Shown: positions 17,750-64,000 of the stretch, one piece after another
Numbering within the stretch: position 1 is the stretch's first letter
Layout: every line of letters starts with the position of its first letter
IMG/VR virus record: IMGVR_UViG_3300031949_000026
DNA length: 64,000 nt
Reading direction: 5' to 3' (one strand)
Source of the DNA: an uncultured virus (IMG/VR IMGVR_UViG_3300031949_000026)
Lineage: Duplodnaviria; Heunggongvirae; Uroviricota; Caudoviricetes
Notes under the pieces: model-generated
Database searches by the model: none
Seen by the model: only the letters and a program-made list of their open reading frames with translations
What the model was told of the DNA's origin: nothing
Made by a program: the position numbers and the translations under genes

Positions 17750-19678
17750 ATGAGCGAAATCGTCCCGCGCAAGGGTGCCGAGCCCGAACGCCTGCCCGGG
17801 GACGGTCCGTTCGTCGATATCGGACAATGGTACTGGCTCAAAATGTACAAGCGAGACGAGGAGGAGCGGGTCGCCTGCGTCACGCTCATCGGCTCGAACT
17901 TCGTCGAACTGGAGGACGCCTACGGGCATGGAAGCCGCGTCCACCTGGACGAGTTCGAGAAGAGGTGCCGCCGGGAGATGAACCCGGAGGCCGTGATCCG
18001 GGAGCGGATGGAGCACTATCGCGGCGTCGTCCGGGAGAAGCTGGGCGAGATCAAGGCGCTCACCGCGCGGCTTGGCGTGACGTCCCGCTTCAAGCTCGAA
18101 GAACATCCGGCCGCCGAGTCGTCCCGGTCCCTTTCGGTGCTTTCCGGAACGCCGGACCTCAAGAAGTACAAAAAGAGCCTGATCCATGCGAAGGACAAGG
18201 AGCTTCCGGCGCTTTTCAAGGAAGTCGAGGAGGCCCACGAGGGCCTCGTCGTCTGGATGAAGGCTCAGACGCTTTCGATGCAGGGCGCGGTGAACGGCAT
18301 GAAGGGCTGCATCGCGGAGATCGAGGGTCGGGTCTTCAACGTGTCGCTCTACGCCGGGCTCTCCGAGGAGGTCGTCCGGGTCGCCAAAGGCGCTCCGGCC
18401 GACATCGGGGAGAAGCTCCGGCTCATGCAGCGGCTCCTCTACATGGACGAGGAGTGCCTGCTCAACTACCAACACGGCGGGATGAAGTTCAAGCACATCG
18501 AGGAGTTCGATCGCTGGCTCGCGAAGCCCGAGAACGTGGCCCGCATCTTCCACTTTCCGCGCTCGATCGTGGCCTTCCGGGTGCGCCGGGAGAAAGTCGA
18601 GCACGACGATTGGGACGGGACGATCGAGCAGATCATGGTCCACTTCGGCGAGGAGGAGTTGAACAAGCTGACCTTCCTCTACATCCGGAACGGCCAGAAT
18701 ATCTATCGGCTCAACTGCGACCTGGAGTTCGACGATCTGATCTTCCCCGGAAAGGACGAACTCAACCTCGACGAGCCGATGCTGGCGAAGATGTTCTGCT
18801 CCCGGGTCGAGGAGGTCATTACGAAGCGGCACTACGAGGACCTCGTGAAGGAGCACGAAAAGGAGGAAAAGGAGCAGGAGGATTGGATCAAGGCCAATCC
18901 AGGGAAGCACACGATCCACGCGCCTCACGGAATCTTCGGGCCGGACTCCGGTCTGGATCGCTACGAGCCCTTCAACAAGTCGAGCGTCTACTACGACGAG
19001 ATCAAGGGGACGATCGAGAAGCGGATCAAGTATTACAACCGGATCGCGCTTATCATCCAGGGCCTCTTCGACCGGAGCGAGGTCCTTCATCCGCATCCTC
19101 CGGTCCGGCTCTGGAGTCCGGAGGGATTCGCCGCCGCCGTCGAACTCGTCTACGACGGATCGAACCTGCTCCACTACGGGGAAGCCCCGGACTTCGAGGC
19201 GTACCGGCGTGCGCGCAACGAATCTCTCAAGGAGGGTTCGGTCACGGTCGGGCAGGATAATTTCTGGTCGATCTGCGAGGCGAAGAAGGAATCGAACCGG
19301 ATGGACCGGGACTGGCGTGTCAAGGGCTACTGGCGGCCGAGCCAGTTTCGGCCCTACGGGAACCCCGGGCCGGGCTATCTTGCGAAGATCGTCCGCTGGA
19401 CGCCGAGGTCCAGGAAGGCGGTCTTTCGCTGGACGCGAAAGCGCCGCGCGCCGGACTATTGGAAAGATCAGAAGTACGGGGACCCGATTCCCGCATCGGT
19501 CGAGGTGCCGGACATGGAACTTTTCAACGTGTCGGCCTACAAGCCGGGCGACTTCAAGCGGTTCTTTGCGGACCCGCGGACCCGCGCGCAGTACATGAAG
19601 TGGGCTCCGCTTCTTTTGGCGGCCGAGGAGTACCACGCGGGCAACATGAAGGTCGGGTCGTCGGTGGAGGATGAGTAA
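17750..19678 (+). CDS. large hypothetical phage protein
   Basis: 642-aa ORF with coding-like composition; LMQRLLYMDEE, QGLFDRS. Confidence 0.75.
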   Translation: MSEIVPRKGAEPERLPGDGPFVDIGQWYWLKMYKRDEEERVACVTLIGSNFVELEDAYGHGSRVHLDEFEKRCRREMNPEAVIRERMEHYRGVVREKLGEIKALTARLGVTSRFKLEEHPAAESSRSLSVLSGTPDLKKYKKSLIHAKDKELPALFKEVEEAHEGLVVWMKAQTLSMQGAVNGMKGCIAEIEGRVFNVSLYAGLSEEVVRVAKGAPADIGEKLRLMQRLLYMDEECLLNYQHGGMKFKHIEEFDRWLAKPENVARIFHFPRSIVAFRVRREKVEHDDWDGTIEQIMVHFGEEELNKLTFLYIRNGQNIYRLNCDLEFDDLIFPGKDELNLDEPMLAKMFCSRVEEVITKRHYEDLVKEHEKEEKEQEDWIKANPGKHTIHAPHGIFGPDSGLDRYEPFNKSSVYYDEIKGTIEKRIKYYNRIALIIQGLFDRSEVLHPHPPVRLWSPEGFAAAVELVYDGSNLLHYGEAPDFEAYRRARNESLKEGSVTVGQDNFWSICEAKKESNRMDRDWRVKGYWRPSQFRPYGNPGPGYLAKIVRWTPRSRKAVFRWTRKRRAPDYWKDQKYGDPIPASVEVPDMELFNVSAYKPGDFKRFFADPRTRAQYMKWAPLLLAAEEYHAGNMKVGSSVEDE

Positions 19679-43585: not shown

Positions 43586-43804
43586 CTACCTCCGCTTCTT
43601 GACCGTGTTGAGGACCGCCCGCGCACCGACCTGGATCGCGCGCGGCTTGGGCATCTTATCGTCCTTGTGCAGGTGGACCGCGTACTCCGCGGCGACCCGG
43701 ATCGCGCGGTGAAGGCCCTTGCCGATCGAGCGGGCGGCCTTTTTTCCCGCGTTGAGGACCTGCTGTTGGGCGCTCTTGATGCGTCCGGGAGGAATCTTCT
43801 TCAT
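43586..43804 (-). CDS. small basic protein
   Basis: K/R-rich; AAGGAG RBS; ATGA coupling. Confidence 0.55.
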   Translation of the reverse strand: MKKIPPGRIKSAQQQVLNAGKKAARSIGKGLHRAIRVAAEYAVHLHKDDKMPKPRAIQVGARAVLNTVKKRR

Positions 43805-45132
43805 GGTACGGCTCCTTCCTTGGCCTTGACCTTCCTCGTCAGGTCGAAGACGACATCGGCCCACGCCGAGGCGTTCGTGGAGCCCATGCAGCGATTCTTG
43901 CAGACCCACGCGATCGACGCCTTGCCGATCGCATCACGCTCCTCCCGGGTCTTCAAGATCATGCGTTCGAGCGCGCCCTCCCACTCGTCGTCCCGGACGA
44001 GTTCGGCGGGCAACCCGGCCTCGACGACCGCAGAGTATTCGCCCACGGGAGAAAGAAGCATCGGGTATCCCGCGGAGGCGTACTCGATCGCCTTGATCGC
44101 GCTCTTTGATGCGTTGAAGGGATTCTCTTCGAGAGGCGCAATCGCGAAGTCGGCGGCGATCCCGGCGAGCTTGTCGTGGTACGCCTCGAAGTCCACCGGG
44201 TCCTGGAGGTCGATCCAGTCGTAGCAGCCCGAAAGCGCCTCGGGCAGCCGCTCCCCGAAGCAGGTGAAGCGGACCTTCCCGGGACGCCTCTGGAGGACCC
44301 GCTGGAGCGCCGGGGCGACGATCGCGAGGTCCCGCTTGTGGGTCGGGCTTCCGGCCCAGAGGATTCTCGTGAAGGCCGGATTCGGAGGATGACGGCGCGG
44401 AGCGACGTTCGCCGTCATCATGTTCGGCAGAACCCGGACGGCTCCCCCGCCGACCTTGTAGTTCTTCGCGATGAAGTTCGCCAGGGGAGCCGTCGAGACC
44501 GTCACGAGATCCGCGAGTCCGATCATCTCCCTGATCTCGGTCTGCTTCTCCGGAGTCCCGTAGACCGAGATCGCTTGGTTCTCCAGGGGGATCGCGTCGA
44601 GCCGGTCGTCGATGTCGTAGACGATCTTGAGGCCCTGTTCCTTCGCCTTCCGGACGATCTCGATCAGGACTGGGGCGGTGATAAGCTGAATCCAGAGGAT
44701 GTCGTAGCGGACGGCCTTGTAGAGGTCCAGATTCATCGTGAAATGCGCGACGACTTTCCCGGTCTCGCGCATGAGGTCCGAGGGGATCATCGCCCGGTAG
44801 AATCCGCTCGCCGCCGCGCCCGCAGGGACGAAGAGGACTTTGGGGATCTCGGTTCGCCCGAAGATCATCTGCGTGAAGATGTCCTCTGCATCATGGCGAA
44901 TTTCCAGAACGTCTTGCACGGACCGGAGCATCCTGGGTCTGATAGAGAGGATCTTCGCGACTTCTTCGGCCTGCTTGAAGACGTCGAACGGGAAGACGGA
45001 GGATCTCTTCTCATAGGTGATCCGAATCCCATCGTCCGTCTCCTGAACCTTGAGATCGTCCGCGTGCTTCCCGCACCACAGACGAACCGCGGCTTCCGGA
45101 ACGCTCCGGATCATGTCAACGATCGTCGTCAT
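43801..45132 (-). CDS. GT-B glycosyltransferase
   Basis: ASGFYR, VYDIDD, ADLVTVST, WAGSPTH, IAPLEENPFNASKSAIKAIEY. Confidence 0.85.
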   Translation of the reverse strand: MTTIVDMIRSVPEAAVRLWCGKHADDLKVQETDDGIRITYEKRSSVFPFDVFKQAEEVAKILSIRPRMLRSVQDVLEIRHDAEDIFTQMIFGRTEIPKVLFVPAGAAASGFYRAMIPSDLMRETGKVVAHFTMNLDLYKAVRYDILWIQLITAPVLIEIVRKAKEQGLKIVYDIDDRLDAIPLENQAISVYGTPEKQTEIREMIGLADLVTVSTAPLANFIAKNYKVGGGAVRVLPNMMTANVAPRRHPPNPAFTRILWAGSPTHKRDLAIVAPALQRVLQRRPGKVRFTCFGERLPEALSGCYDWIDLQDPVDFEAYHDKLAGIAADFAIAPLEENPFNASKSAIKAIEYASAGYPMLLSPVGEYSAVVEAGLPAELVRDDEWEGALERMILKTREERDAIGKASIAWVCKNRCMGSTNASAWADVVFDLTRKVKAKEGAVP

Positions 45133-51617: not shown

Positions 51618-52538
51618 TTATGCCACAAGAGCCAGCGGAGACTTTTTCTCGAAGGAGAGCGACGTCACCCTCTTCCCCATAATGTACAGGCCGCTCTCTC
51701 TGACCGCAAACATCTCTCGCCCCATGCGATTCTTGAGGACCATCCCGTCATCCTCATAGTCCTCGGTGAAGCGCCAGCCGTTCTCGAACGACAAGTCGCC
51801 CGCGGTGATCGTGACGGCGCGAACGAGAGTGAGCCGGAGCGCCGCCGTCCCCAGAGACCAATCATTGTCCACCACCGGAGCCATCGTGAAATCGCCCTGG
51901 AGGGCGATGTTCCCGTTGAAGCGGCTGGCCGCGTTGCATCGAAAGTCTTCTCCGGCCACGGCCCCGATGAGCCCGTTGGTGCTGCCCGTCACGATCACGC
52001 AGCCGTCGTCTCCGAGCACGAGGACTTCGACCTGGGTCGTGCTCCCGTTCGGTGTCGTCTTGAGGACCTGACGAGTGCCGTGATTGGCCGCCGTCCACGC
52101 ACCCGCCGCCTCGAAAAGGATGGCGGCCTGCTGACCGGAGAAGGCCACGCCGTCGTAGCCGCGTGCCGAGAACTCCCACATGTCGTCGTCGTCCACGAGG
52201 GCGGTCGGAGCGGCCTTGGTGCCTTCCGACTTTCGACCGACGAACTCGAAATTCTCCCCGGATGTTCCGTAATGGTCGATGATCCAAAGCGGCCCCGTGC
52301 CCTGGTATTCCGCGTGCAGCGGGAATCCCGGCGCGAAGATTCCCTGAGCGTCGATCCCCTCGATCCCGAGCCGCCGGTTCGTCGTATCCACGACGAGAAA
52401 ATCGTCCGGAGTCGCGTCCCGGACCGTGAACGCGCGGGTCGAGGTCCGGCGAATCTGAGGATCGGCCGAGACGATGATCGGATCGACGCTCGCCGCGAGG
52501 TCGAGCGACGTGACCTGATCGACGATCGAAAGCGGCAT
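51618..52538 (-). CDS. fibre/spike-like protein
   Basis: VDTTNRRLGI, RKSEGT..APTA, ARGYDG, TTPNGST, DNDWSLGTAALR: beta-repeat fibre motifs. Confidence 0.65.
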   Translation of the reverse strand: MPLSIVDQVTSLDLAASVDPIIVSADPQIRRTSTRAFTVRDATPDDFLVVDTTNRRLGIEGIDAQGIFAPGFPLHAEYQGTGPLWIIDHYGTSGENFEFVGRKSEGTKAAPTALVDDDDMWEFSARGYDGVAFSGQQAAILFEAAGAWTAANHGTRQVLKTTPNGSTTQVEVLVLGDDGCVIVTGSTNGLIGAVAGEDFRCNAASRFNGNIALQGDFTMAPVVDNDWSLGTAALRLTLVRAVTITAGDLSFENGWRFTEDYEDDGMVLKNRMGREMFAVRESGLYIMGKRVTSLSFEKKSPLALVA

Positions 52539-52958: not shown

Positions 52959-53741
52959 TTAGAGTTGGAGGTCTCCCGTGGCCCATTCCGCGGCTCCCTG
53001 CGGCGCGGAAGCCCAATACTGGTAGAAGGCCAGGACCCCGCGGATCGTGACCGTGACGCCGCTTTTGTTCTCGACGAGCATCTGGAGCCGCGAGCGTCCG
53101 CGGACGCCGAACTGGAGCCCGTTAGAGAGCAAGCACCACGGGATTTCGACCGAGGCGGGAAGAACCGTCGTCCGGCCGGACTGGACCGGCGTCGAGCCGC
53201 CGTAAGCCGTGGGCGTCTGGTCATCGAAGATCGGGATGATGTCGGCCCGGCCCGCGACGTTGTTGCGGGCGTTGGCCGCCTGGAGCCAGAATTCCAGTTG
53301 GCAGTTCATGAGCGGCGCGAGCGGCGCGAGATCCAGACCGAAGCCCGTCACGATCGCGCGCTGGCGGTCTTCGATCAGCCGGTCGAAGATGACGGCCGTC
53401 GCGCCGGGCGCAACCTGGAGGCCGCACTTCGACTTGATGAGCGGCTTCGAGAAGAAAGGCGGCTCGTTGAACGCGGGCTTCTTGACGAAGAAAATGAGCG
53501 GCTTCTTGAGTTCCGACGCGAAGCGGCAGAAGAGGTCGTCCATCTTCTGCTGATCGGCGGGGTCCTTCGTGTTCGGCCCGCAATTGGGATCGAACACGAC
53601 GTCCTTCGGGCGAGGTTCGCCCTGTCCGTAGTCCCGCCAGCCCTCGAAGAAGTATTCCTCTTCGTGAGGGTTTCCCATGCCGCCGCGACCCGGCGGGCGC
53701 GGAGGCGGCCCTCCTCGACGGGGAGGCTGTTTAGGAGACAT
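52959..53741 (-). CDS. beta-rich minor capsid protein candidate
   Basis: Pro/Arg/Gly leader ending GGMGNP, then alternating beta strands. Confidence 0.5.
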   Translation of the reverse strand: MSPKQPPRRGGPPPRPPGRGGMGNPHEEEYFFEGWRDYGQGEPRPKDVVFDPNCGPNTKDPADQQKMDDLFCRFASELKKPLIFFVKKPAFNEPPFFSKPLIKSKCGLQVAPGATAVIFDRLIEDRQRAIVTGFGLDLAPLAPLMNCQLEFWLQAANARNNVAGRADIIPIFDDQTPTAYGGSTPVQSGRTTVLPASVEIPWCLLSNGLQFGVRGRSRLQMLVENKSGVTVTIRGVLAFYQYWASAPQGAAEWATGDLQL

Positions 53742-54654
53742 AGCTGACCTTGCGGCCTCCGAAGATGGGCTTCACCGTGTTCGGATTCACCGTGTCGAGG
53801 TTGTCGATGTCGAGTTGCACCTTGAGCGACCGGCGGATCATCCAGGAGGTCGCCCACCGCGCCGGGAAGATGCCGCCCGAACCGCCGACGCCGCCGCCCG
53901 CGACGGTCGGCTGGTGCGCGCCGAAGAGAAGGGACGAATGGAGCTTGTCGCCCGTGAGCGCGCGGTCGTTCTGGCCGTCGCGGATGCGGCAGCGGAACGC
54001 GGCCGAGGACTGCGCCGTGAGCTTGAAACACTCGAAGTCCGCGTTGTCCGGAATCGTCATGAAGTTCGGATCGTCCGTCGCGCCCGCCGGGAGGACGATC
54101 TCTTCGTCGGTCGTGAGGAGGTAGGCGTAGGTCCGTTCGCGGCGCTCGATGTACTCCCAGACCTCCTTCTTGATCTGCCCCGGGGCCTGATTCGGGTAGA
54201 ACTTGATCCCGCCCAGGACGAGTTCGACCTTCCGCTCGTTCACGAGGTCCTGATTCCGGAACGTGATGTTGAGCGACTGGACCGGCGGGATGAAGATCGT
54301 CTCCGGGAGGACGTAGGGGCGGCCCGCGTCCCCGGAGCAGGCGAGAAGGGGGATGGGGCGCGGGGAGAACTGGATGCGCTTCCCCGGGTGCTCCAGAAGG
54401 AAGTCGATGTCGTAGGTCGTGACCGGCACATCCGCGTCGTCGTAGACGACGGTCTTGATGTAGAAGACCTCGATCGGACCGTCGTACTGCGCGGTGAGCG
54501 GAAACGGGCCGCGCCGCTCGCCCGGCGCGAGCGTGACGACCTGATTCGGCTTCGACACCGACAACTCGAACGGCTGGACCCAATCCTTCGCCGGATTGAG
54601 GTAGGTGCGACCCTGCTTGTCGCGAAGGAACGTCGGAACCTGCGCCCAACTCAT
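53731..54654 (-). CDS. tandem two-domain beta-rich capsid protein candidate (double jelly-roll-like)
   Basis: two similar halves ending RNQDLVNERKVELVLGGIKF and DNLDTVNPNTVKPIFGGRKV. Confidence 0.55.
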   Translation of the reverse strand: MSWAQVPTFLRDKQGRTYLNPAKDWVQPFELSVSKPNQVVTLAPGERRGPFPLTAQYDGPIEVFYIKTVVYDDADVPVTTYDIDFLLEHPGKRIQFSPRPIPLLACSGDAGRPYVLPETIFIPPVQSLNITFRNQDLVNERKVELVLGGIKFYPNQAPGQIKKEVWEYIERRERTYAYLLTTDEEIVLPAGATDDPNFMTIPDNADFECFKLTAQSSAAFRCRIRDGQNDRALTGDKLHSSLLFGAHQPTVAGGGVGGSGGIFPARWATSWMIRRSLKVQLDIDNLDTVNPNTVKPIFGGRKVSYVS

Positions 54655-54804: not shown

Positions 54805-55443
54805 CTAGACGCCCTTGTACCGGATGCCCCGGATGAACCACCGGAAGAGGAGGTTTCCCGTGATGCCCGCGAGCCCCGAGGGGAAGCTGATCTTCACCTG
54901 ATAGGGCTCGGTCGAGTTGATGTGGAGCGCCCTGCCGCCCACGTCGAAGCGGTAGAGGTTGTCGGAGATGCCCCACCCGATGTGCGGCGCGTCGGTCGCG
55001 CCCAGGCCCTCGGTGTCCACGCCGGAGGGCACGTCCTCGACCGGGATCGTGAGGAACTTCGTGTCCTGGCCGAAGATGATCTCCGAGAGCGCGGCGGCCA
55101 TGACGAGCGTGAAGTTCCCGACCGAGACGGTCTTGGACGTGAGGCTGCCCCAGAGCCGGGCGTTGAAGCCGTAGACGTCGAAGCTCAGGGGGGTGCCGAG
55201 CGATCCCGCCTGGGTCTGGTTCGAGTGGATGAACGTCTTCGACGTCGCGCCGTCGTTGAGGTTCTGGCCCACCGGCTTCGAGTACAGGGTGAACTCCCTG
55301 TTCGGGGTCGCCGCCAGGATGACTTCCGAGTCGTACAGCGGCTCCTTGTACGACCGGACGATCGCGGCGGGCACCCCCTTCGTGATCTTGTAGTAGGGGT
55401 GGACCACCTGGATCGGCTGCTGCGAGCCGTTCGGCGGAGGCAT
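54805..55443 (-). CDS. major capsid protein candidate (single jelly-roll-like)
   Basis: beta-rich; EPLYDS...SKT..HSN.TQAGSL..P.SFDV; strong AAAGGAG RBS; flanked by structured spacers. Confidence 0.55.
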   Translation of the reverse strand: MPPPNGSQQPIQVVHPYYKITKGVPAAIVRSYKEPLYDSEVILAATPNREFTLYSKPVGQNLNDGATSKTFIHSNQTQAGSLGTPLSFDVYGFNARLWGSLTSKTVSVGNFTLVMAAALSEIIFGQDTKFLTIPVEDVPSGVDTEGLGATDAPHIGWGISDNLYRFDVGGRALHINSTEPYQVKISFPSGLAGITGNLLFRWFIRGIRYKGV

Positions 55444-55628: not shown

Positions 55629-56735
55629 CTAGAACCGCTCCGGCATCGACGACCGGGCGAACTCGTCGAAGGCTTCTCCGATCCCCGAGGGCTGCATCTC
55701 GACCCGATCCGTCTGGGTTTCGGTGAGATACGCGCCCATCGTGGCGTCTTCGCCTTCGCGAGCCGTCAGGAACGTCTCCGCCCCCGCGGGCGTGAGGTAC
55801 GTCTCCATGATTCCCGCGGGCTGGATGTACTCGATCATCCCCTCGGCTCCGGCGGCCGGGAGATACTCCTGCACACCTCCGCCGCCGCGGAGTTCCTTGA
55901 GGACTTCCTTCTCGATCGCCTTGCGGAACTCCTCCGTCTCGGGCGCTTCGCCCAGAGTCGGGATGAACTCCTTCGCGCTATCGGGGAGCGCCTCGGAGAG
56001 CACCTGCCAGAGGGTCGCGAGCAAGCCGCCCGCCAGGAACCGGGTCGTCATGTTCCGGTTCTTGGTGGCGATGCCCATGAACGCCGTTCCGAGGATCGTC
56101 GAGCCGAGCATCGTCCCGACGCGGCCGATGCCCGATTCCCCGAGCGACGGGATCACCTTCTTGTAGAGCAGACGGCCGCCCACGGCGACCCCGCCGAAGC
56201 CCAGACCCGTGTGGAACAGGGCTTCGAGCGTGTCCATCGAGAAGGCGTCCTGGAGCGCCGCCTTGATCGCGCCGATCGGATCGGCCGACAGACGGACCGC
56301 CCTCGCCGGGTTCCGCCGGTAGTACCGGCGGCGCGGGTTGTGCCGGGCGTAGCGGCGGCGACGGCGCGGCGCGTTGCCCGGGTTGTGCCGGACCCGCCGC
56401 CGACGCCGGTAGCTCCGCGGGAAGCGGTAGCCCCTGATCTGTCCGCGACGGCGGCCCTTCCTGCGGCGCTTGGCGTACTTCGTGATCTTCCTCCAGCGGC
56501 GGCCGACCTTGACGAAGCCGCTCGGATTCCGGCTCCGGCGACGACGCCGGACCGTGCCCTTGGACCGCCGCGAAACAAACCGGCCGCTCGCGGAGCGGGC
56601 GGTCCGACGCCGCCTGACGCGACGGCGCGTGATGGTTTTCGCCATCTTGATCCTCCTTGCCCGTCGTGCGGGCGACTTGCGAACCGACCGGGGAACATCC
56701 CCGACCGGGTTTGCGAAAATCAATGCTCCGATCAT
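55629..56735 (-). CDS. Arg-rich core/DNA-condensing membrane protein candidate
   Basis: protamine-like N-half with five NP motifs; hydrophobic helices; acidic repeats; second start at 56645 with AAGGAGG. Confidence 0.7.
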   Translation of the reverse strand: MIGALIFANPVGDVPRSVRKSPARRARRIKMAKTITRRRVRRRRTARSASGRFVSRRSKGTVRRRRRSRNPSGFVKVGRRWRKITKYAKRRRKGRRRGQIRGYRFPRSYRRRRRVRHNPGNAPRRRRRYARHNPRRRYYRRNPARAVRLSADPIGAIKAALQDAFSMDTLEALFHTGLGFGGVAVGGRLLYKKVIPSLGESGIGRVGTMLGSTILGTAFMGIATKNRNMTTRFLAGGLLATLWQVLSEALPDSAKEFIPTLGEAPETEEFRKAIEKEVLKELRGGGGVQEYLPAAGAEGMIEYIQPAGIMETYLTPAGAETFLTAREGEDATMGAYLTETQTDRVEMQPSGIGEAFDEFARSSMPERF

Positions 56736-56738
56736 TTG

Positions 56739-59432
56739 CTACCCCCGCATCCAGTCCCCGGTCTTCTGACCGGGACCCATGACCTTGACGATCACCTTCC
56801 CGCCGCTCGCGGCGAGGACCGGAACCGGGCGGGGACGGCCGGAGCCGTCGCCCCACTCGTGCCGGTACATATGCCGCCCCTTCCGGGAGCCCTTCGGCGG
56901 CTTGTACATCGTCTCGGGACTGTCGCCGTAGTGGGCGAACGAGGTCAACATCTCGATCTTCTTCGCGGAGCCGATCGGCAGCGTCTTCCAGATGACGAAA
57001 TGGGGCTTCTTGTTCGCCTTCGTCTGGAGCCGCTCGGCCTCCTCGAACTGCCGCAGAAGTTCCGGGTTCCCGAGCTTCCGCACCCAGGCGCGGGCGCGCT
57101 CGATCGGAATCTTCTGGCCCTCGCGGAACGGGATGCGGACCGAGCCGGGATTCCCGACGACCCGCTTGGTCTGCTTCGTGACGGTCTCCGTGACCCGGAC
57201 CGGCTTCCCGGCGCGGCGCGGATTCGAGCGGGAATGGTTCTCCTGCCACGAACGCATGAGCGCGCCCCGCGCGGAGTCGGTGAGACCCGCCCACGACGGG
57301 GCCGCCGCGAGCGCCCAGGCGTAGTCGTCCGGAAACCCGGCGAACTCAAGCGCCGCGTGCCGCTGACGGCGCGTGAGCGAGGGCCACTTCCGGTCGATCG
57401 GCGGGTTTGCGAGGAGCACGGTCTGGAGGAGCGGGTTCGGCCGGACGGATTCCGGTCCATACTTGCGGATCACGTCCTCGGCCATCGCCGCGCGTCCCGT
57501 GTAGAAGCCTCGACGCTCTCCACGGAAACTCCGAGCACGATAAGCGTCGTTCGCGGCATCGGTCGCAAGCTGACCGCTTTCCCCGCGTGTAAGAGGGTTC
57601 CCGCGGGTCCATCCTCCTCCGCCCTTCTGGATATGAGAGATGGCCCTCTTCACGATCGCAGGCTTCGCGATGGTGAGCACTTCCCCGTCCCTCGCCTGCG
57701 CCCAGACGAAGGCGTTCCGAAGCAGCGAGGCGACCTTTCCTTCCAGGCCGCCCGGAACCTTGTAGGCGCGGACCGATCCATTCGGAATCGGCTGTCCGTA
57801 TTCGCCGCGCTTGGGCTTGTAGATACCGACCTCTCCGAGAATTTTCGTCTTCTTCGTGAGAAGGGTCGAAGAACCCATCGCACGGACCGACGACATGAGG
57901 AGGAAGACCGGCCGCCAGCCGGTCGTCACCGAGACCGTGCCGCTCGCGACGTGACCGAAGTCGTCCACCCAGATTCGCTTCCCGTTTTCGTAGTAGGGAA
58001 TGAAGCGTGGATCGAGTTCGGAGTCGTCGAACTTCGATCCGTGCTGCGCCTTCGCGCGCGCGAGGAGATCCTGATACGATCGACGCTCCCGGCCGGAGGC
58101 ATAAGGATTGTCGCAGGTCGAAGGGTTCGAGCAGCAATTCTCCCGCGCCGGAACCCGGTAGCCCGCCTTGCGCGCCATCGAGTAGGCGATCGCGATCGCC
58201 TGCTGCTGCGGGTAGCCCTCACGAACGAGCATCCCGATCTTCCCGGAGATGAAGCTCTGCGCGTCGGCGCTCGCCGGGTTCCCGCGCGCGCCGGTCTTGC
58301 TCGCGGCGTACCCGCGGACGAAGCACCACGCCTCCTTGAGGCCGCGCGCGGTGTAGATGCCGTCGCCCCCGTGGTAGTCGGTCGGCTTCGTGAAGAAGCG
58401 GTAGCGCGTCATGCCGTCGCCGGGAGCCCAGGTCTCGATGTGGAGCCCGAGCGACTTCGCAAACTCGTCGAGCCCCCTACGACCCTCGCCGGGAGCGTTG
58501 CGGAACACCGCGGCTTCCGCCCGCTTGATCGTCGCCCCCTGGCGCATATCGAGAGGTCCGAACTCGGCCACCCCATCGGCGTAGCCGTAGGCGCGTCCTT
58601 TATAGTGGGCGGCGAGCCGACCGCTACGCTGTTGACCGGCGGAGACCATCGAGCCCAGCGCCATCGTGAGCGCCCGATCCGCCTCACGGCGCGTGAGCGG
58701 ATTCGAGACCGGGCCGATCAGCCGGTCGTAGTTCCCGAGTTCCGCTTCGGCCTCGAAGCTGTCGCGGAACATTCTGGCTGCGACCTCCCGGGTCGCCCTG
58801 TTGAACATGGTGTCGATCCGGGGAATGTCGTGGGGACGCTCCGAGGAGACGACGTACTCTTTGATGTACTTCTTCGCTCCGCTCTCCATGAGGTACATGA
58901 AGAGCGTGACGGCCTTCTCCCGATCGTAAACGCCCTTGCGCCGCTTGAGCATGAGGTTCTTGACGATCGGAATGAACTGCTGACGATAGAGATCCGCGTC
59001 GTTCTCGATGAAGATTGCAAGCTCCCGAGCGGCGTCGGCGTCGGCCGGACCGGAGGGCGCGTTGTTGAAGGCGAAGACGTTCTTACGCGCCTTACCGTTC
59101 GGCCATGCGAAATCCGCGTTCGGCTCGGGGCTGCCTTCGTTGTTGAAGGCGAAAATGTTCCGGCGCGCGCCGTTCGGCTTCGCGATCAGGCCCATTTCCT
59201 CGGCATAGCCGATGACGGACCGCTTCAACTCCACACCACGCTTGAAGAATCCATCCCCGAACATCTGACGGGCGTCGTCGTCCCACCACTCCGCGATCGT
59301 CCTCTGACCTCTCTTTTTGTCGCTGATACGGATGTGCAGCCGATCGCGCTCCTCCCAGACATTGACATCGACCTCCGCCCGAGTGAGGAGACGGCGCGGG
59401 TTATTGAAGGCGAAGACGTTTTTCCGGCTCAT
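56739..59432 (-). CDS. large mosaic NP-punctuated protein (polyprotein candidate)
   Basis: ATGA overlap at 59432; three R[KR]N[VI]FAFNN repeats; 11 NP dipeptides between modules. Confidence 0.75.
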   Translation of the reverse strand: MSRKNVFAFNNPRRLLTRAEVDVNVWEERDRLHIRISDKKRGQRTIAEWWDDDARQMFGDGFFKRGVELKRSVIGYAEEMGLIAKPNGARRNIFAFNNEGSPEPNADFAWPNGKARKNVFAFNNAPSGPADADAARELAIFIENDADLYRQQFIPIVKNLMLKRRKGVYDREKAVTLFMYLMESGAKKYIKEYVVSSERPHDIPRIDTMFNRATREVAARMFRDSFEAEAELGNYDRLIGPVSNPLTRREADRALTMALGSMVSAGQQRSGRLAAHYKGRAYGYADGVAEFGPLDMRQGATIKRAEAAVFRNAPGEGRRGLDEFAKSLGLHIETWAPGDGMTRYRFFTKPTDYHGGDGIYTARGLKEAWCFVRGYAASKTGARGNPASADAQSFISGKIGMLVREGYPQQQAIAIAYSMARKAGYRVPARENCCSNPSTCDNPYASGRERRSYQDLLARAKAQHGSKFDDSELDPRFIPYYENGKRIWVDDFGHVASGTVSVTTGWRPVFLLMSSVRAMGSSTLLTKKTKILGEVGIYKPKRGEYGQPIPNGSVRAYKVPGGLEGKVASLLRNAFVWAQARDGEVLTIAKPAIVKRAISHIQKGGGGWTRGNPLTRGESGQLATDAANDAYRARSFRGERRGFYTGRAAMAEDVIRKYGPESVRPNPLLQTVLLANPPIDRKWPSLTRRQRHAALEFAGFPDDYAWALAAAPSWAGLTDSARGALMRSWQENHSRSNPRRAGKPVRVTETVTKQTKRVVGNPGSVRIPFREGQKIPIERARAWVRKLGNPELLRQFEEAERLQTKANKKPHFVIWKTLPIGSAKKIEMLTSFAHYGDSPETMYKPPKGSRKGRHMYRHEWGDGSGRPRPVPVLAASGGKVIVKVMGPGQKTGDWMRG

Positions 59433-59737
59433 GCCGCGACCCTCCGACGCATCGGGACATAGGGCCAACCCGCCGGGTTCCGGCGCGCGCCGCGGGACGC
59501 GAAGTGCGAGCCGATCGCGGCGGCGACCGCCGCGCCCGCGACGAGGGCCAGGACGACCGCCAGCCCGAACTTCGGGAGCACGTCTTCGACCATGACTTTC
59601 CTGATCGTCGGCTCCGCCGCTTCCGAGGCCGACGCCACGATCTCCTTCATGCGGGGCAGGAGCGCCGCGGTGATCTTGTCCGCGATCGGCATGATCGCGG
59701 CCGAGAGCGCATCCTGTCCCATGCCGTAGTGCTGCAC
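59429..59737 (-). CDS. small membrane protein with GMGQ and RRNP motifs
   Basis: GTG start; HYGMGQD...TM...ARRNP. Confidence 0.65.
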   Translation of the reverse strand: MQHYGMGQDALSAAIMPIADKITAALLPRMKEIVASASEAAEPTIRKVMVEDVLPKFGLAVVLALVAGAAVAAAIGSHFASRGARRNPAGWPYVPMRRRVAA

Positions 59738-59739: not shown

Positions 59740-61251
59740 CTATCTCCGGCCCCTGCTCCTGCTCCTGGACTTGAAGAGGACGTAGCCCGCGGCGAGGGCC
59801 GTCACACCCGAGCCGAGCCAGAACCAGGGACTCGACAGGATCGACTTCGACGAGACGGGCATCATCTGGACCTGTGCGACCGGAGCGCCCGCGACCTTGT
59901 TCGTGGCGTTGGCGACGGCCGCCGCGTACTTCGCCTCGACCTTCGCCGTCACGACGGCTCCGGCGACCTTCGCCGCCTCCGCGAGCGCCCCCGTCACCGT
60001 GTTGAGGACGGAGTTCCCGGCGTCGGTCGCCGCCTTCGCGGGCTCCGAATCGAGGCTCGTGACGAGCGTGGACTTCCACTCCTCGCCTTCCGCCCCCATC
60101 CCCGCGGGGACCCGCGTCGGGTTCTGCATGACGACCACCGCGCGGCGGCGGATTCCCATCGGCTGTTCCATCACGATCCTCACTTGTCTCTCGGGGGTCC
60201 CGGGCTGCTGCTCCTGGACGGTGGGACCGGCCTTCCAGAACCGGCGCACGTCGCGTCCGAGGTTCCCGTTCCAGGGAGAGCCCGGCGGATACGGCTGGTT
60301 TTCGATCTTGGTGTAGGGCTGGTCCCCTCTCCTGTAGTAGGGAGGGCCGTGATCGTCCGGCTGCCCCTTGAGGTGGACGATCCGGCGCGACGGGTTTTTC
60401 CCCTTCGACGCCTTGATGTACTTGAGACCCGGCTGGAGATCCGACTCGGGAATCTCCGTGTCGTGCGGCGGGAGAAGCTGCATGTTCGCCGCGTCGGAGA
60501 CGGGGATGAGTCCCTCGGCCCCGTCCGGCCCGAACGACTTGGGGATGCCGTAGCCGTACTCCTCGGACGGATAGAACTCTTCCTGTGGATTGGACGTGAC
60601 GACATCCTCGACCTCCTGGCCGAGGCCGTTCCGGTGGAAGCCGTTGAGCCCGCTCATGCCCTTCCCTCCGACCACATCTTCGATCGGTCCCTCGGGCCAA
60701 CGCGCGAAAAGTTCCGGAGCGACAGGCGGCCTCCAACCGGGCTTCGCGCTGGCCGTCGAAGGATCGAGCGCGTACCAGTCGCCGTTGACTCGGGCCGCGA
60801 CCCAGACGTGGGAAAACTCGTCGGGGCGCTGGAGATCGACCTTGGCCGTCTCCCACGCATACTGAAATCCGAGAATGCCCAGGAGCGCCGCCGTGTAGAC
60901 GCCCGCGATCGTATCGCAGTCCCCCACGAAAAGACCGGGGCCTTTGTACTTCTTCGCCACCCGAGCTTCGATGATCGGCTGCATCGCGGCGATCGGATGC
61001 TCGATCTTCTCGATCTGGAACGGATCACGCTGGAAGATGCCGTGTTTCTTGATCCACCAAAAGATCGCGTCGAGGACGGCCGTCGTGGACGCGCGCCGGT
61101 CGCTCGGAACCTGTAGCCTGATCCAGGTCGCGATCCGCTGCATCGTCTTGTCGAGCTTCCCGAGCGCGACGAGCCGGTGCATCTTATCCAGGGTCTTTTT
61201 CGTCCCCCGGACGCCGCGCTCAAGACCTTCGATCGTGGACTGTTCGCGCAC
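59740..61251 (-). CDS. transglutaminase-like (Cys-His-Asp) protease with C-terminal membrane anchor
   Basis: GDCD, FSHVW, WYALDPS triad; GMSGLNG, NGLGQ and AGMGA; SPWFW-TM-basic tail. Confidence 0.8.
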   Translation of the reverse strand: MREQSTIEGLERGVRGTKKTLDKMHRLVALGKLDKTMQRIATWIRLQVPSDRRASTTAVLDAIFWWIKKHGIFQRDPFQIEKIEHPIAAMQPIIEARVAKKYKGPGLFVGDCDTIAGVYTAALLGILGFQYAWETAKVDLQRPDEFSHVWVAARVNGDWYALDPSTASAKPGWRPPVAPELFARWPEGPIEDVVGGKGMSGLNGFHRNGLGQEVEDVVTSNPQEEFYPSEEYGYGIPKSFGPDGAEGLIPVSDAANMQLLPPHDTEIPESDLQPGLKYIKASKGKNPSRRIVHLKGQPDDHGPPYYRRGDQPYTKIENQPYPPGSPWNGNLGRDVRRFWKAGPTVQEQQPGTPERQVRIVMEQPMGIRRRAVVVMQNPTRVPAGMGAEGEEWKSTLVTSLDSEPAKAATDAGNSVLNTVTGALAEAAKVAGAVVTAKVEAKYAAAVANATNKVAGAPVAQVQMMPVSSKSILSSPWFWLGSGVTALAAGYVLFKSRSRSRGRR

Positions 61252-61262: not shown

Positions 61263-61301
61263 AAAAAAAAGAGGACCCCGTGCAATGAGCACGAGGCCCC
61301 C
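61263..61301 (-). terminator. intrinsic terminator immediately upstream of the protease gene
   Basis: minus strand GGGGGCCTCGTGC-tcatt-GCACGGGGTCCTC-T8. Confidence 0.75.
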
Positions 61302-62551: not shown

Positions 62552-62851
62552 TCACGTTCCCGGCCTCCGGTAGAGCGATCCCGCCCGGATCGCCTGCGCG
62601 AACTTCGGGAGATCCTGCCGGAGCGCCTGCATCTCCATCTGGAGCGCCCCGTTGACTTCGATCGTATCGTCGAGCGCGGAGATGAGTCCCTCGTCCTTCC
62701 GCGTGATCGCGTCGAAGAGAAGCGCCGTCATCTCCGTCTGCTTCTGGACGGCCTCCGTAAGCTTGGAGACGGACTTCTGGAGACTGTCGAGGCACCTCAA
62801 AAACTGGCCGAAGCGTTCCTGCTGCTTCCGAGAGACCTCCTCTTCCGTCAT
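62552..62851 (-). CDS. coiled-coil protein
   Basis: ATGA coupling; heptads. Confidence 0.6.
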   Translation of the reverse strand: MTEEEVSRKQQERFGQFLRCLDSLQKSVSKLTEAVQKQTEMTALLFDAITRKDEGLISALDDTIEVNGALQMEMQALRQDLPKFAQAIRAGSLYRRPGT

Positions 62852-63555
62852 CGACAATGCCCCCTGTACAGGAACCCGAGTTCGTCGCCGCGGAAGCCGT
62901 CGAAGTACGCCACGCGGACACCGCTCGTGTCGGCGCAGTAATTGAAGGAGACCTGATCGCGCTTCGACCCGGAAGCAAGTTCCCGCCACCAATAGGCGTT
63001 GAACTCCGCCACCTTCGGCGTATGCCGTCGAAGGAGAATCCCGGTCTCCGCAAGACCGGCGTTCGCGGGGTAGCCGCGACCGCGATACTTTTCCAATTGG
63101 GAGCTAACGACCCCAGGATCGTCCTTCCCACAGTCGATCGCGAACTGGCCGCCTTCGTAGGTGCAGGAGAACATGAAGTGCCTGCACACGGCGATGTCGG
63201 CCTCCGCAAGATATTTTTTCACGAGACCCGGGACGTCCACCTTGTCGAGCGTGAACGCGGCATCGACCCAGAGGGAATACTCGTAACGGTGGACCGGGTT
63301 GCACGGGAGATGGGAATTCAGCTTCCAGAAGCGGGCGCGGCGCGTGTCGTCGAGGCTTCCCCACGAAACGTCGGGGGGAATGACCGCGGGCACGAAGCCG
63401 TTCGCCCGGCCGTGGAACCAGCGGGGCGGCCCCCCGGGGAAGTCCGTCGCCAGGAACACGTCGTAGTCTCCCGGCTTCGGACGGTCGTAATGATCGTGAG
63501 CGCCGAACAAGGCCGTGTACACGGCGATTTTATTTTTGAGGATGCCGTAGCTCAT
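62848..63555 (-). CDS. DUF616 / TOD1-MUCI70-like glycosyltransferase
   Basis: VYTALFG..D, RFWK, YSLWVDA, SKRDQVSFNY. Confidence 0.8.
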   Translation of the reverse strand: MSYGILKNKIAVYTALFGAHDHYDRPKPGDYDVFLATDFPGGPPRWFHGRANGFVPAVIPPDVSWGSLDDTRRARFWKLNSHLPCNPVHRYEYSLWVDAAFTLDKVDVPGLVKKYLAEADIAVCRHFMFSCTYEGGQFAIDCGKDDPGVVSSQLEKYRGRGYPANAGLAETGILLRRHTPKVAEFNAYWWRELASGSKRDQVSFNYCADTSGVRVAYFDGFRGDELGFLYRGHCR

Positions 63556-64000
63556 CGGACCGGCGCGACGTCGATCTTGGAGAGATCGACATCACCGAAC
63601 TCCTTCTCCTCGTTGAACTTCCGAGCCCGCAAGAGGACGCCGGGGAAGCCCGGCGCGTCCTCCCGAAGATCCTGGATTCTCATGTCGGCAAAGATCCGAA
63701 GAAAATCCGGAACCGTGAAACGCCAGTAGTCGTGCGGATACCCGTGGTACGGGAAGCCGGGACCCCGTGTGGTCACGACGAGCAGACCGCCCGGCGCGGT
63801 CATCTCCTTCATCACGCGAACAGCGGTGCGCCAGTCCTCGGCGTGCTCCAGCATCTCGGTTGAGATCACGACGTCGAAGGGCTCGGGAAAGGCTTCAGGA
63901 ATGCGCTCAACCGAGAGGACGACATCGACGCCCTTCCCCGGCGTCATATCAACGCCGGTCCAGGACGCGGGACCGTGGCCCGCGAGTGCATCCCGCGGAG
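63552..64000 (-). CDS. class I SAM-dependent methyltransferase, 5'-partial
   Basis: frame open to the edge; TGVD..GKGVD, FDVVISTEMLEH, HGYPHDYWRFT. Confidence 0.85.
   Translation of the reverse strand, partial: PRDALAGHGPASWTGVDMTPGKGVDVVLSVERIPEAFPEPFDVVISTEMLEHAEDWRTAVRVMKEMTAPGGLLVVTTRGPGFPYHGYPHDYWRFTVPDFLRIFADMRIQDLREDAPGFPGVLLRARKFNEEKEFGDVDLSKIDVAPVR

What the first reader, a model, noticed from the sequence alone, without database searches (positions are those of the whole stretch)
56739..59432. ~900-aa mosaic protein punctuated by N-P motifs: candidate virion-packaged polyprotein
Seen: 11 NP dipeptides (NNP, SNP, GNP, DNP, PNP, ANP) plus NG and NA variants separate short unrelated modules. 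There are three R[KR]N[VI]FAFNN repeats (about 59060-59430) and a duplicated module (NPLTRREA...YKGRA...FGP versus NPLTRGES...YTGRA...YGP). Several modules resemble stand-alone phage proteins (ELAIFIENDADLY...GVYD; TTGWRPVFLL; YPQQQAIAIAYS). Inference: NP is a cleavage or capsid-targeting signal that lets the virus string together cargo or effector domains, like polyvalent proteins but processed.
Basis: partly seen in the sequence, partly recalled or inferred. Interest (0 to 1): 0.85.

Follow-up and report, generated by a model that had tools for sequence, protein, structure and literature searches.

The report
Asn-Pro-punctuated mosaic phage protein
An uncultured virus encodes a roughly 900-residue protein built from about ten small interchangeable domains, with an asparagine-proline pair in nearly every flexible linker, which may mark where the chain is cut into separate virion proteins.

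Summary
ORF 56739-59432(-) encodes 897 aa with 11 NP against 2.1 expected; 0 of 20,000 shuffles reach 11. All 52 full-length homologues carry 8-21 NP against 1-3 expected.

An AlphaFold2 model shows about ten small domains. Nine of the 11 NP lie in low-confidence linkers and a tenth lies at a linker edge. The eleventh is a helix cap that relatives do not conserve.

BLAST homology blocks among relatives start and stop at NP, and the modules shuffle. Only the C-terminal module (762-897) is constant, and it is always terminal. Stand-alone homologues of modules exist and lack NP.

The same motif is invariant in the adjacent arginine-rich protein and recurs in three other genes of the block. A transglutaminase-like Cys-His-Asp protein is encoded directly upstream. 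A second virus lineage has the same pairing.

Cleavage at NP and virion packaging are inferred, not shown. No cultured relative or proteome exists.

Verdict: real, family-wide, and undescribed in the literature I searched.

The parts
56739..59432 (-). CDS of the mosaic protein: 897 aa from ATG 59432, stop at 56739-56741. The open frame extends upstream to TTG 59468.
   Evidence: GC3 0.84; ATGA overlap with the upstream gene's stop
59397..59426 (-). N-terminal leader MSRKNVFAFN-NP: repeat 1 of R[KR]N[VI]FAFNN plus NP11
   Evidence: The same kind of short leader ending in NP opens 25 of 53 family members.
59139..59165 (-). Repeat 2, RRNIFAFNN, followed by E rather than P
59061..59087 (-). Repeat 3, RKNVFAFNN, followed by A rather than P
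   Evidence: the family consensus at this place is NNP
59154..59396 (-). Module 1 (aa 13-93), beta/alpha, 10-residue-block pLDDT 74-88
   Evidence: it shuffles among relatives
58710..59057 (-). Module 2 (aa 126-241), helical, 10-residue-block pLDDT mostly 95-97. It is widespread as a stand-alone ORF of 100-160 aa.
58503..58691 (-). Module 3 (aa 248-310), NPLTRREA... helical hairpin, copy 1 (low confidence in the model)
58290..58487 (-). Module 4 (aa 316-381), alpha/beta, 10-residue-block pLDDT about 90
58149..58274 (-). Module 5 (aa 387-428), helical hairpin; phrog_2423 and, below cut-off, DUF6496
57837..58088 (-). Module 6 (aa 449-532), phrog_8217-like. A stand-alone homologue occurs in 22 Mycobacterium phage records.
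57618..57776 (-). Module 7 (aa 553-605), alpha/beta, 10-residue-block pLDDT about 90
57450..57596 (-). Module 8 (aa 613-661), NPLTRGES... helical hairpin, copy 2. This is the commonest module family: 119 segments in 71 proteins.
57405..57434 (-). Decapeptide PLLQTVLLAN flanked by NP666 and NP676, nearly invariant in the family
57234..57404 (-). Module 9 (aa 677-733), helical, 10-residue-block pLDDT about 94
56742..57149 (-). C-terminal conserved module (aa 762-897). It is the only part shared by all relatives and is always at the very C-terminus.
   Evidence: (93 of 183 proteins, none more than 10 aa from the end)
58698..58703 (-). NP244 codon pair in a linker. The other linker NP pairs are at 58275-58280, 58122-58127, 58104-58109, 57594-57599, 57432-57437, 57402-57407, 57219-57224 and 57147-57152. 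NP789, at 57063-57068, lies inside the C-terminal module.
   Evidence: Codons vary (AAC/AAT; CCG/CCT/CCC) and there is no longer DNA motif.
55629..56735 (-). Downstream neighbour, 368 aa. It opens with the leader MIGALIFA-NP. Residues 1-145 hold 53 R, 9 K and 1 acidic residue and are cut into segments by NP; the protein has 5 NP against 0.4 expected. The C-terminal half is acidic and Gly-rich.
   Evidence: (NP at 9, 70, 118 and 142 invariant in 10 of 10)
59429..59722 (-). Upstream 97-aa protein with one hydrophobic helix followed by RRNP...RRR
   Evidence: (homologue in 8 of 8 loci; basic-NP after the helix in 7 of 8)
59740..61251 (-). Upstream 503-aa protein with a transglutaminase-like core (C112, H148, D163). 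It is the candidate processing protease.
61271..61301 (-). Terminator-like hairpin (13 pairs, T-run) just upstream of the 503-aa gene; possible start of the transcription unit
   Evidence: the total number of terminator-like sites in the region is not above the shuffle expectation

Best explanation
The gene encodes a modular carrier protein of an uncultured virus of about 67 kb.

Anatomy (shown). About ten small, independently folding domains are joined by disordered linkers, and each linker carries an Asn-Pro pair. The N-terminal modules are interchangeable among relatives. The C-terminal module (762-897) is constant.

NP as a short linear motif (shown). The motif is specific to this virus group. 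It also occurs in the adjacent arginine-rich protein, the small membrane protein, and the 307-aa and 134-aa proteins of the same gene block.

Mechanism (inferred). NP is the scissile P1-P1' pair of a maturation cleavage. The cut would be made by the transglutaminase-like cysteine-protease-fold protein encoded directly upstream, or by asparagine cyclisation. Cleavage would remove short N-terminal leaders, separate the modules, and chop the arginine-rich protein into protamine-like peptides.

Further inference. The C-terminal module holds the precursor in the assembling particle, and the released modules act inside the particle or after ejection.
For: NP excess. This protein has 11 NP against 2.1 expected. 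The 52 homologues have 8-21 against 1-3. The 130 further representatives have 662 against 115.

NP in linkers. 9 of 11 NP lie in the 26% of residues with pLDDT below 50 (binomial 2e-4). Within the linker pool, NP is 9 observed against 2.0 expected.

Homology blocks end at NP. 52% of 5,506 internal HSP starts lie within 3 aa of an NP, against 10% of random positions. The mode is start = N and end = P.

NP-to-NP spacing is bimodal. 206 intervals are 17 aa or less, 19 are 18-40 aa, and 414 are 41-150 aa.

Stand-alone forms lack NP. The 7 stand-alone module-2 proteins printed with zero NP are. In 30 of 58 viral loci, module 2 sits in an ORF of 170 aa or less with no NP. Other multidomain carriers of the module have only 2-3 NP against 0.4-1.0 expected.

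NP is conserved where no fold can demand it.
- Four NP are invariant in 10 of 10 sequences inside the low-complexity Arg-rich region of the neighbour, together with its leader MIGALxFxNP.
- NP lies within 12 aa of the start in 25 of 53 family members.
- 5 of 8 genes of the block have an NP in their first 30 residues, against 3 of 67 other ORFs (Fisher 1.6e-4; the block was chosen post hoc).

Selection is on the peptide. Codons vary and there is no flanking DNA motif.

Candidate enzyme. The upstream gene is present in 8 of 8 related loci that reach that far. C112, H148 and D163 are invariant in 36 homologues. Pfam Transglut_core matches 12 of the 36, best E 2.9e-7.

A second lineage (L070-L072).
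- It has an NP-rich mosaic protein with a different C-terminal module (7, 7 and 5 NP against 0.7-1.0 expected).
- It has a basic NP-punctuated protein with a similar leader (6, 9 and 7 NP against 0.8-1.2 expected).
- One of the three loci also has a transglutaminase-like homologue (E 1.6e-15).

Chemical precedent. Asn|Pro scission is documented for RsgI (PMC10328401, passages read), EscU at NPTH (PMC3189125, abstract) and aquareovirus VP5 at Asn42-Pro43 (PMC9148132, listing and abstract start).
Against: No direct evidence of cleavage. There is no cultured relative: the 212-aa and 307-aa proteins have no match in 50,697 phage records.

Known Asn|Pro autocleavages sit in a turn of a folded domain (PMC10328401). 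Here the sites are disordered.

Pro at P1' is tolerated by few endopeptidases (recalled general knowledge, not from any call).

The candidate protease is weakly supported.
- The window's own 503-aa protein matches no Pfam family.
- Its AlphaFold2 model failed (pLDDT 34.5).
- A transglutaminase-like fold could equally be a cell-wall peptidase or something else.

Two of the three FAFNN repeats here lack the Pro, so modules 1 and 2 would stay joined.

Paired NP only 4-17 aa apart would release tiny peptides.

Module order is partly conserved, which would also fit a protein that works whole.

'Virion' is inferred only from position beside the two best-conserved, highest-GC3 genes and from a weak tail-fibre PHROG hit on the 306-aa ORF at 51618-52538, which lies downstream in the same gene block. 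No capsid, portal, terminase or prohead-protease family was found.
Confidence: 0.42

Rival explanations
1. The protein is an uncleaved beads-on-a-string polyvalent protein. NP is a linker motif with a role other than scission. It could be a hinge or stop signal between domains, or a short docking motif read by a partner such as a scaffold, a capsid interior, a chaperone or a membrane. The whole chain would be packaged or would act as one piece.
For: - NP lies in disordered linkers.
- Module order is partly conserved: the recurring pattern is 3-0-...-10mer-4-0-anchor.
- Tandem NP 4-17 aa apart (206 of 647 intervals) fits multivalent binding better than cutting.
- The nearly invariant NP-flanked decapeptide PLLQTVLLAN looks like a binding element.
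- Some large virion proteins of phages are packaged unprocessed; N4 virion RNA polymerase is the example discussed in PMC5512222 (passages read).
Against: - A pure hinge does not explain NP 3-12 residues after the start codon in 25 of 53 members.
- It does not explain invariant NP inside an Arg-rich low-complexity region.
- It does not explain strict use of one dipeptide where any Gly/Ser/Pro linker would do.
- The docking variant remains fully open.
Confidence: 0.35
2. NP is cut without any protease. The Asn side chain attacks its own carbonyl, forming a succinimide, as in reovirus mu1/VP5, FlhB/EscU and RsgI. This could be triggered by assembly or by packaged DNA. This is a sub-variant of the best explanation, listed separately because it predicts a different experiment.
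For: - The Asn-Pro pair is strictly required while the flanks are weakly conserved (position-by-position context table).
- This is the pair used by three unrelated autoproteolytic systems (PMC10328401, PMC3189125, PMC9148132).
- The motif NIFAF-NNP resembles a strand followed by NP, as in RsgI (PMC10328401). That comparison is mine, by eye.
Against: - Known cases need a folded catalytic environment. Here 9 of 11 sites are in low-pLDDT segments.
- NPTH occurs 0 times among 700 NP.
- No Pfam match to FlhB-like or RsgI domains.
Confidence: 0.12
3. The Asn of NP is a site of covalent modification rather than scission, for example a virus-specific glycosylation.
For: - The window encodes at least five glycosyltransferase-like proteins.
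- The transglutaminase-like superfamily includes peptide:N-glycanases (recalled, not from a call).
Against: - N-X-S/T sequons exclude Pro at X (recalled general knowledge).
- Nothing links these enzymes to the protein.
- This reading does not explain why NP sits at module borders.
Confidence: 0.04
4. The NP excess is a by-product of composition, a wrong reading frame, or chance.
For: The genome is 63% G+C and has many long spurious ORFs.
Against: - 0 of 20,000 shuffles reach the observed count.
- The excess persists within the linker pool.
- GC3 is 0.84 in this frame.
- There are 3,189 database relatives at E 1e-3 or better.
- Domains fold confidently: 296 residues have pLDDT of 90 or more.
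Confidence: 0.01

Closest known systems
Polyvalent proteins of phages and conjugative elements (Iyer, Burroughs, Anand, de Souza, Aravind 2017; PMC5512222, abstract and passages read)
   Same: - Many unrelated small domains in one polypeptide encoded by a virus.
- Mosaic architectures that differ between relatives.
- Proposed packaging with the DNA, and possible release of domains by proteolysis.
   Different: - None of the hub domains of that class (zincin-like peptidase and others) is detectable here.
- No embedded peptidase domain was found.
- The junctions obey a strict dipeptide rule. I found no such rule in the passages returned by a term search (cleav, processed, linker, autoproteoly, peptidase, DUF2958) of that paper.
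- A constant C-terminal module is present.
Head-internal proteins processed by a prohead protease: T4 internal proteins with a capsid-targeting leader cut by gp21, and phiKZ-type inner-body proteins cut at many sites. Recalled from the literature; the T4 head review PMC3012670 was seen only in a search listing.
   Same: - A short N-terminal leader.
- One short cleavage motif shared by several head proteins.
- Multi-site processing of internal proteins.
   Different: - The motif would be Asn|Pro rather than a site after Glu.
- No prohead-protease family was detected.
- Cleavage here is unproven.
Adenovirus core-protein precursors (pVII, pX/mu) trimmed by the packaged cysteine protease. Recalled; the review PMC3386624 was seen only in a search listing.
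   Same: An arginine-rich DNA-associated precursor encoded beside capsid genes, punctuated by a short conserved motif, with a cysteine-protease-fold gene nearby.
   Different: Different virus, motif and protease fold. The analogy concerns the 368-aa neighbour more than the mosaic protein.
Asn-Pro autoproteolysis: RsgI periplasmic domain (PMC10328401), FlhB/EscU NPTH (PMC3189125), reovirus mu1 and aquareovirus VP5 Asn42-Pro43 (PMC9148132)
   Same: The same dipeptide is the scissile bond. In reoviruses it is a capsid-maturation cut.
   Different: In those systems there is a single site in a folded turn. Here there are 8-21 sites per protein in disordered linkers, with no NPTH (0 of 700) and no sequence relationship.

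Membership tests
Polyvalent proteins (PMC5512222) | 2-15 distinct domains in one polypeptide of a phage or plasmid | tested here: met
   About ten predicted domains. Segment clustering shows shuffled module families.
Polyvalent proteins (PMC5512222) | Presence of the class's recurrent conflict or hub domains, such as the zincin-like peptidase | tested here: not met
   Pfam gives only a sub-threshold DUF6496 match for P0001. The 29 relatives scanned gave no family. DUF2958 appears in 2 of 7 other relatives, and that name does not occur in the paper's main text.
Polyvalent proteins (PMC5512222) | Delivered with the DNA (in the virion) | not testable with these tools
   No cultured relative.
Asn-Pro autoproteolytic domains (FlhB/EscU, RsgI-PD, mu1/VP5) | NP in a turn inside a folded domain; NPTH for the FlhB family | tested here: not met
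   9 of 11 NP lie in segments with pLDDT below 50. NPTH occurs 0 times among 700 NP. No Pfam match.
Asn-Pro autoproteolytic domains | Scission of the Asn-Pro bond | not testable with these tools
   Needs protein chemistry.
2A / StopGo peptides (D[VI]ExNPGP) | NPGP at the end of the motif; acts on eukaryotic ribosomes | tested here: not met
   NPGP occurs 2 times among 700 NP in the family. In this protein NP761 reads NPGS.
phrog_8217 | Profile match over most of the model | tested here: met
   E 2.1e-10; residues 451-532 against profile positions 7-91 of 106. tblastn finds stand-alone ORFs in 22 Mycobacterium phage records.
phrog_2423 / Pfam DUF6496 | Profile match | tested here: inconclusive
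   phrog_2423 E 2.1e-6 over residues 393-424. DUF6496 scores 16 bits against a cut-off of 24.
Transglutaminase-like superfamily (PF01841), for the upstream 503-aa protein | Cys-His-Asp triad in the core | tested here: met
   C112, H148 and D163 are invariant in 36 homologues. In the (unreliable) model the Cys is at the start of a helix and the His and Asp are at the start and just after the following strands.
Transglutaminase-like superfamily (PF01841), for the upstream 503-aa protein | Significant match to the family profile | tested here: inconclusive
   The window's own copy gives no match. 12 of 36 homologues match, best E 2.9e-7. 2 of 100 carry the precomputed family label. No PDB match by sequence.
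Prohead-protease substrates with a targeting leader (T4 type) | A recognisable prohead protease in the genome | tested here: not met
   No such PHROG or Pfam family among the 69 ORFs scanned.

The most novel reading that the evidence does not exclude
At least two lineages of uncultured prokaryotic viruses build their internal virion proteins as polyproteins. One two-residue signal, Asn|Pro, would be used throughout: to strip short leaders, to separate up to about 20 cargo modules, and to cut an arginine-rich precursor into protamine-like peptides. The cut would be made by a transglutaminase-fold protease or by Asn cyclisation. This would be a bacterial-virus counterpart of adenovirus core maturation and of RNA-virus polyproteins, with a cleavage rule simple enough to let modules be swapped freely.
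Probability: 0.35. Interest if true: 0.85.

Novelty: new variant of a known kind. Interest (0 to 1): 0.68.

Why it matters
If NP is a processing site, it would be a new, very short and portable maturation signal in prokaryotic viruses. It would explain how one gene can carry an ever-changing set of small proteins into the particle.

It would also give a handle on dozens of small phage protein families of unknown function. These include phrog_8217, phrog_2423/DUF6496, phrog_3207, DUF2958 and the widespread module 2, which are otherwise seen only as orphan ORFs.

The arginine-rich NP protein would be a candidate DNA-condensing system in a bacterial or archaeal virus.

Even if NP is not cut, the strict junction rule is a usable bioinformatic marker. 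The family has 3,189 database proteins at E 1e-3 or better. It belongs to a virus group whose capsid, portal and terminase are not recognised by current profile libraries.

Tried and rejected
Fold searches.
- Foldseek of the whole model against the PDB gave no match at E 1e-3 or better.
- BFVD gave four matches at E 1e-3 or better, all to uncharacterised viral proteins; three of them are small, about 100-115 aa.

Structure of the 503-aa protein. The model had mean pLDDT 34.5 and was unusable, so it was not searched.

Complex prediction. The C-terminal module was tested against the 307-aa protein, the 212-aa protein and the C-terminal half of the 368-aa protein. The answer was 'no answer' (score 0.00), which is neither support nor evidence against.

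Sequence searches of the PDB. The 503-aa family, the 307-aa and 212-aa families and the C-terminal module gave nothing meaningful.

Double jelly-roll lead. The ESM Atlas placed the 307-aa protein nearest, among Pfam-bearing clusters, to PM2 P2_N/P2_C at score 0.78. hhalign of the family against PM2 P2 gave probability 3%. The lead is not supported, and the capsid fold stays unknown.

Homology of the two kinds of C-terminal module. hhalign aligned the stretch I had picked by eye, but at probability 1%. Not supported.

DNA-level explanation of NP (a recombination or repeat motif). Rejected: codons vary and there is no flanking conservation.

Pfam and PHROG scans gave no known function for any module. 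This covered relatives, stand-alone forms and other multidomain carriers of module 2.

Genome collection. Only one hit, a 14-kb contig binned in a MAG, so there is no prophage context and no host.

Unavailable. Earlier findings and the whole genome were not available.

Literature. No paper describing NP-punctuated phage proteins turned up in searches. The library lacks most subscription journals.
Full report
THE GENE

On the minus strand an ORF runs 56739..59468 (909 aa from a TTG). This ATG overlaps the TGA stop of a conserved upstream 97-aa gene as ATGA, so I take it as the start. Third-position G+C is 0.84 in this frame, in a window of about 63% G+C.

The window looks like most of a virus genome. 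The plus strand from 1 to about 40 kb holds replication genes: a DinG-like helicase, a D5-type primase-helicase, a thymidylate synthase, RNase H, an XPB-like helicase and several glycosyltransferases. The minus strand from about 40 to 64 kb holds genes that mostly match nothing. The protein's own cluster sits on a contig of 66,987 bases.

There are 11 NP, at residues 11, 244, 385, 436, 442, 612, 666, 676, 737, 761 and 789. The expected count is 2.07, and none of 20,000 shuffles reaches 11.

The excess is a property of the family. The 52 full-length homologues found in metagenomes have 8-21 NP against 1.1-3.2 expected. A further 130 representatives from an exhaustive search have 662 NP against 115 expected.

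In the window, only this gene and its downstream neighbour stand out strongly (11 against 2.1, and 5 against 0.4). Four other ORFs show 3 NP against 0.3-1.1 expected.

The three R[KR]N[VI]FAFNN repeats and the duplicated NPLTR... module are there.

NP MARKS THE JUNCTIONS

An AlphaFold2 model built on the 53-sequence alignment has mean pLDDT 71 and 296 residues at 90 or above. It shows about ten compact domains separated by segments with pLDDT below 50.

- Nine of the 11 NP fall in those segments, which make up 26% of the chain (binomial 2e-4). A tenth, NP676, lies one residue beyond a segment.
- Within the pooled linker residues, NP is still 9 observed against 2.0 expected.
- The eleventh, NP789, caps a helix inside the C-terminal module. 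Relatives have GD[RK] there, so it is incidental.
- Only two or three of the sites are helix caps. For NP244, 385 and 612 the helix starts three to four residues later, at a Thr or Ser.

Among the 53 proteins, internal BLAST block ends cluster on NP. 52% of 5,506 starts and 41% of 3,398 ends lie within 3 residues of an NP, against 10% for random positions. Sharp modes fall at start = N and end = P. These HSPs are not independent, and a shared NP can itself attract block ends, so this is a strong pattern rather than a formal probability.

NP-to-NP spacing is bimodal. 206 intervals are 17 aa or less, 19 are 18-40 aa, 414 are 41-150 aa, and 8 are longer.

MODULES SHUFFLE; ONE PART IS CONSTANT

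Pairwise comparisons show blocks present, absent, duplicated or reordered among relatives. Cutting 183 proteins at NP and clustering the pieces of 25 aa or more gives 378 clusters. A partly conserved order recurs, ending in '10-mer, module 4, helical hairpin, C-terminal module'.

The C-terminal module (762-897) is present in 93 of the 183 proteins and is always at the very end. It has no relative in Pfam, PHROGs or the PDB by sequence.

The decapeptide PLLQTVLLAN, flanked by two NP, is nearly invariant.

STAND-ALONE HOMOLOGUES EXIST AND LACK NP

- Residues 451-532 match phrog_8217 (E 2.1e-10) and stand-alone ORFs in 22 Mycobacterium phage records.
- Residues 393-424 match phrog_2423 (E 2.1e-6), and DUF6496 below its cut-off.
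- Relatives carry phrog_3207, phrog_7247 and DUF2958 modules.
- Module 2 (126-241) is widespread. Many of the 150 best representatives match only this part, and BFVD holds viral proteins of about 100-115 aa with the same predicted fold.
- In 30 of 58 viral loci, module 2 lies in an ORF of 170 aa or less with no NP at all.
- In multidomain ORFs of other, low-G+C phages, NP is barely enriched and is not next to the module. Only the two loci of the present lineage are NP-rich: 16 against 2.8 and 13 against 2.0.

NP is therefore a feature of the concatenated form in this virus group, not of the modules themselves.

No module has a known function.

THE MOTIF IS SHARED BY NEIGHBOURING GENES

Nine related loci keep the same gene order: 503-aa protein, 97-aa protein, mosaic protein, 368-aa protein, 212-aa protein, 307-aa protein, 260-aa protein.

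- The 212-aa and 307-aa proteins are the best conserved (67-83% and 58-72% identity) and have the highest GC3 (0.98 and 0.91). I take them to be capsid components by inference only.
- The 368-aa protein opens with MIGALxFxNP, invariant in 10 of 10. Its first 145 residues hold 53 R, 9 K and one acidic residue. NP at 9, 70, 118 and 142 are invariant although the rest is low-complexity.
- The 97-aa protein has one hydrophobic helix followed by a basic-NP motif in 7 of 8 relatives.
- The 307-aa protein has an invariant [IV]Y[MI]NP-AKDW after a leader of 20-33 residues.
- The 134-aa protein's relatives open with MPAPLNP in 6 of 6.
- Five of the eight genes of this block have an NP within their first 30 residues, against 3 of 67 other ORFs (Fisher 1.6e-4). 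The block was chosen after looking.
- In the mosaic family itself, the first NP lies within 12 residues of the annotated start in 25 of 53 members, as MxRKNIFxxNNP, MxxRKNPPSF or MKNP.

An NP that is conserved a few residues after the start codon, and inside an arginine-rich disordered stretch, cannot be there for folding. It behaves as a short linear motif.

A CANDIDATE ENZYME

The 503-aa protein encoded directly upstream is present in all 8 related loci that extend that far.

In 36 homologues, C112, H148 and D163 are invariant. Twelve of the 36 match Pfam Transglut_core, best E 2.9e-7. Two of 100 carry that label in the precomputed table.

The window's own copy does not reach any Pfam threshold, and its AlphaFold2 model was unusable. 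The assignment therefore holds for the family, not independently for this sequence. What the enzyme does is not known.

A terminator-like hairpin lies just upstream of this gene, which fits the 503-aa gene and the genes that follow it in the block being one transcription unit.

A SECOND LINEAGE

Some NP-rich relatives end in a different conserved C-terminal module. Three viral contigs of 41-59 kb with 57-60% G+C carry it (L070-L072).

- Each has an NP-rich mosaic protein: 7, 7 and 5 NP against 0.7-1.0 expected.
- A few genes downstream, each has a basic protein with 6, 9 and 7 NP against 0.8-1.2 expected. It has a short hydrophobic leader ending in NP, an NP-flanked hydrophobic mini-segment, and a Gly-rich hydrophobic C-terminal half.
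- One locus also has a transglutaminase-like homologue (E 1.6e-15).
- The basic proteins are not detectably homologous to the window's. The architecture is shared; the sequence is not.

MECHANISM

What is shown:
- a string of autonomous domains;
- a junction rule that is strict, lineage-specific and selected at the peptide level (codons vary and there is no DNA motif);
- the same motif in several genes of one block;
- a conserved neighbour gene with a cysteine-protease-type fold.

What is inferred: that NP is cut, that the products are in the particle, and that the C-terminal module is the part that holds the precursor there.

I put cleavage at NP at about 0.4-0.45. A dedicated protease is more likely than self-cleavage, because the three documented Asn|Pro autocleavages all occur in folded turns (RsgI, PMC10328401, passages read; EscU, PMC3189125, abstract; VP5, PMC9148132, listing), whereas these sites are disordered.

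The main rival, at about 0.35, is an uncleaved polyvalent protein in which NP is a hinge or docking motif. Partly conserved module order and tandem NP a few residues apart fit that reading.

COMPARISON WITH WHAT IS KNOWN

The protein works like the polyvalent proteins of Iyer et al. (PMC5512222) and like multi-site processed head-internal proteins. It has none of the former's characteristic domains, and no recognisable prohead protease is present.

It is not a 2A-type signal (NPGP occurs 2 times among 700 NP) and not an NPTH site (0 of 700).

I found no description of an NP junction rule in phage proteins. The library lacks most subscription journals, so this is not proof of absence.

I rate it a new variant of a known kind. 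It is well worth a bench test, because the prediction (fragments starting with Pro) is simple and decisive.

Noticed in passing
window 1-64000: The virus itself is unusual. It is about 67 kb and 63% G+C. No terminase, portal, major capsid or prohead-protease family was detectable among the 69 ORFs scanned with PHROGs, 39 of which were also scanned with Pfam. There are no relatives of the 212-aa and 307-aa proteins in 50,697 phage records, and only one hit (a MAG contig) in 185,579 species genomes.
   Followed up: partly
window 53731-54654 (-) and 54805-55443 (-): The 307-aa and 212-aa proteins are the most conserved in the group and have the highest GC3 (0.91 and 0.98), so they are probably capsid proteins. 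The Atlas's nearest Pfam-bearing cluster for the 307-aa protein is PM2 coat protein P2 (score 0.78), but hhalign against PM2 P2 gives 3% probability. Whether the fold is HK97 or jelly roll is unresolved.
   Followed up: partly
window 55629-56735 (-): The 368-aa protein has a protamine-like N-terminal half (53 R in 145 residues) cut into segments by invariant NP. Its acidic C-terminal half carries three Y[LI]xPAG repeats. This suggests a DNA-condensing precursor.
   Followed up: partly
window 59740-61251 (-): The 503-aa protein has an invariant Cys-His-Asp transglutaminase-like core, a long disordered middle and a C-terminal hydrophobic stretch ending in RRRR. The hydrophobic stretch does not reach a Kyte-Doolittle mean of 1.6 over 19 residues.
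   Followed up: partly
L070 8372-10513 and 12512-13402; L071 5442-7418 and 10140-11123; L072 8696-10600 and 12963-13988: A second virus lineage (41-59 kb contigs) has its own NP-rich mosaic protein with a different C-terminal module, plus an NP-punctuated basic protein.
   Followed up: partly
window 8310-10565, 11413-12045 (+); 43801-45132, 62848-63555 (-): The window encodes at least four glycosyltransferase-like genes, plus methyltransferases at 15879-16520 and 63552-63947. Their targets are unknown.
   Followed up: no
P0001 residues 126-241; BFVD hits: Module 2 has predicted-structure matches to small proteins annotated from Klosneuvirus KNV1 (a giant virus of eukaryotes) as well as to uncultured phages.
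   Followed up: no
window 17240-19678 (+): An 812-aa ORF in the replication arm has no Pfam or PHROG match. No DNA polymerase was recognised in the window.
   Followed up: no
window 61271-61301 (-): A strong terminator-like hairpin (13 pairs, 8 T) lies between the small upstream genes and the 503-aa gene.
   Followed up: no
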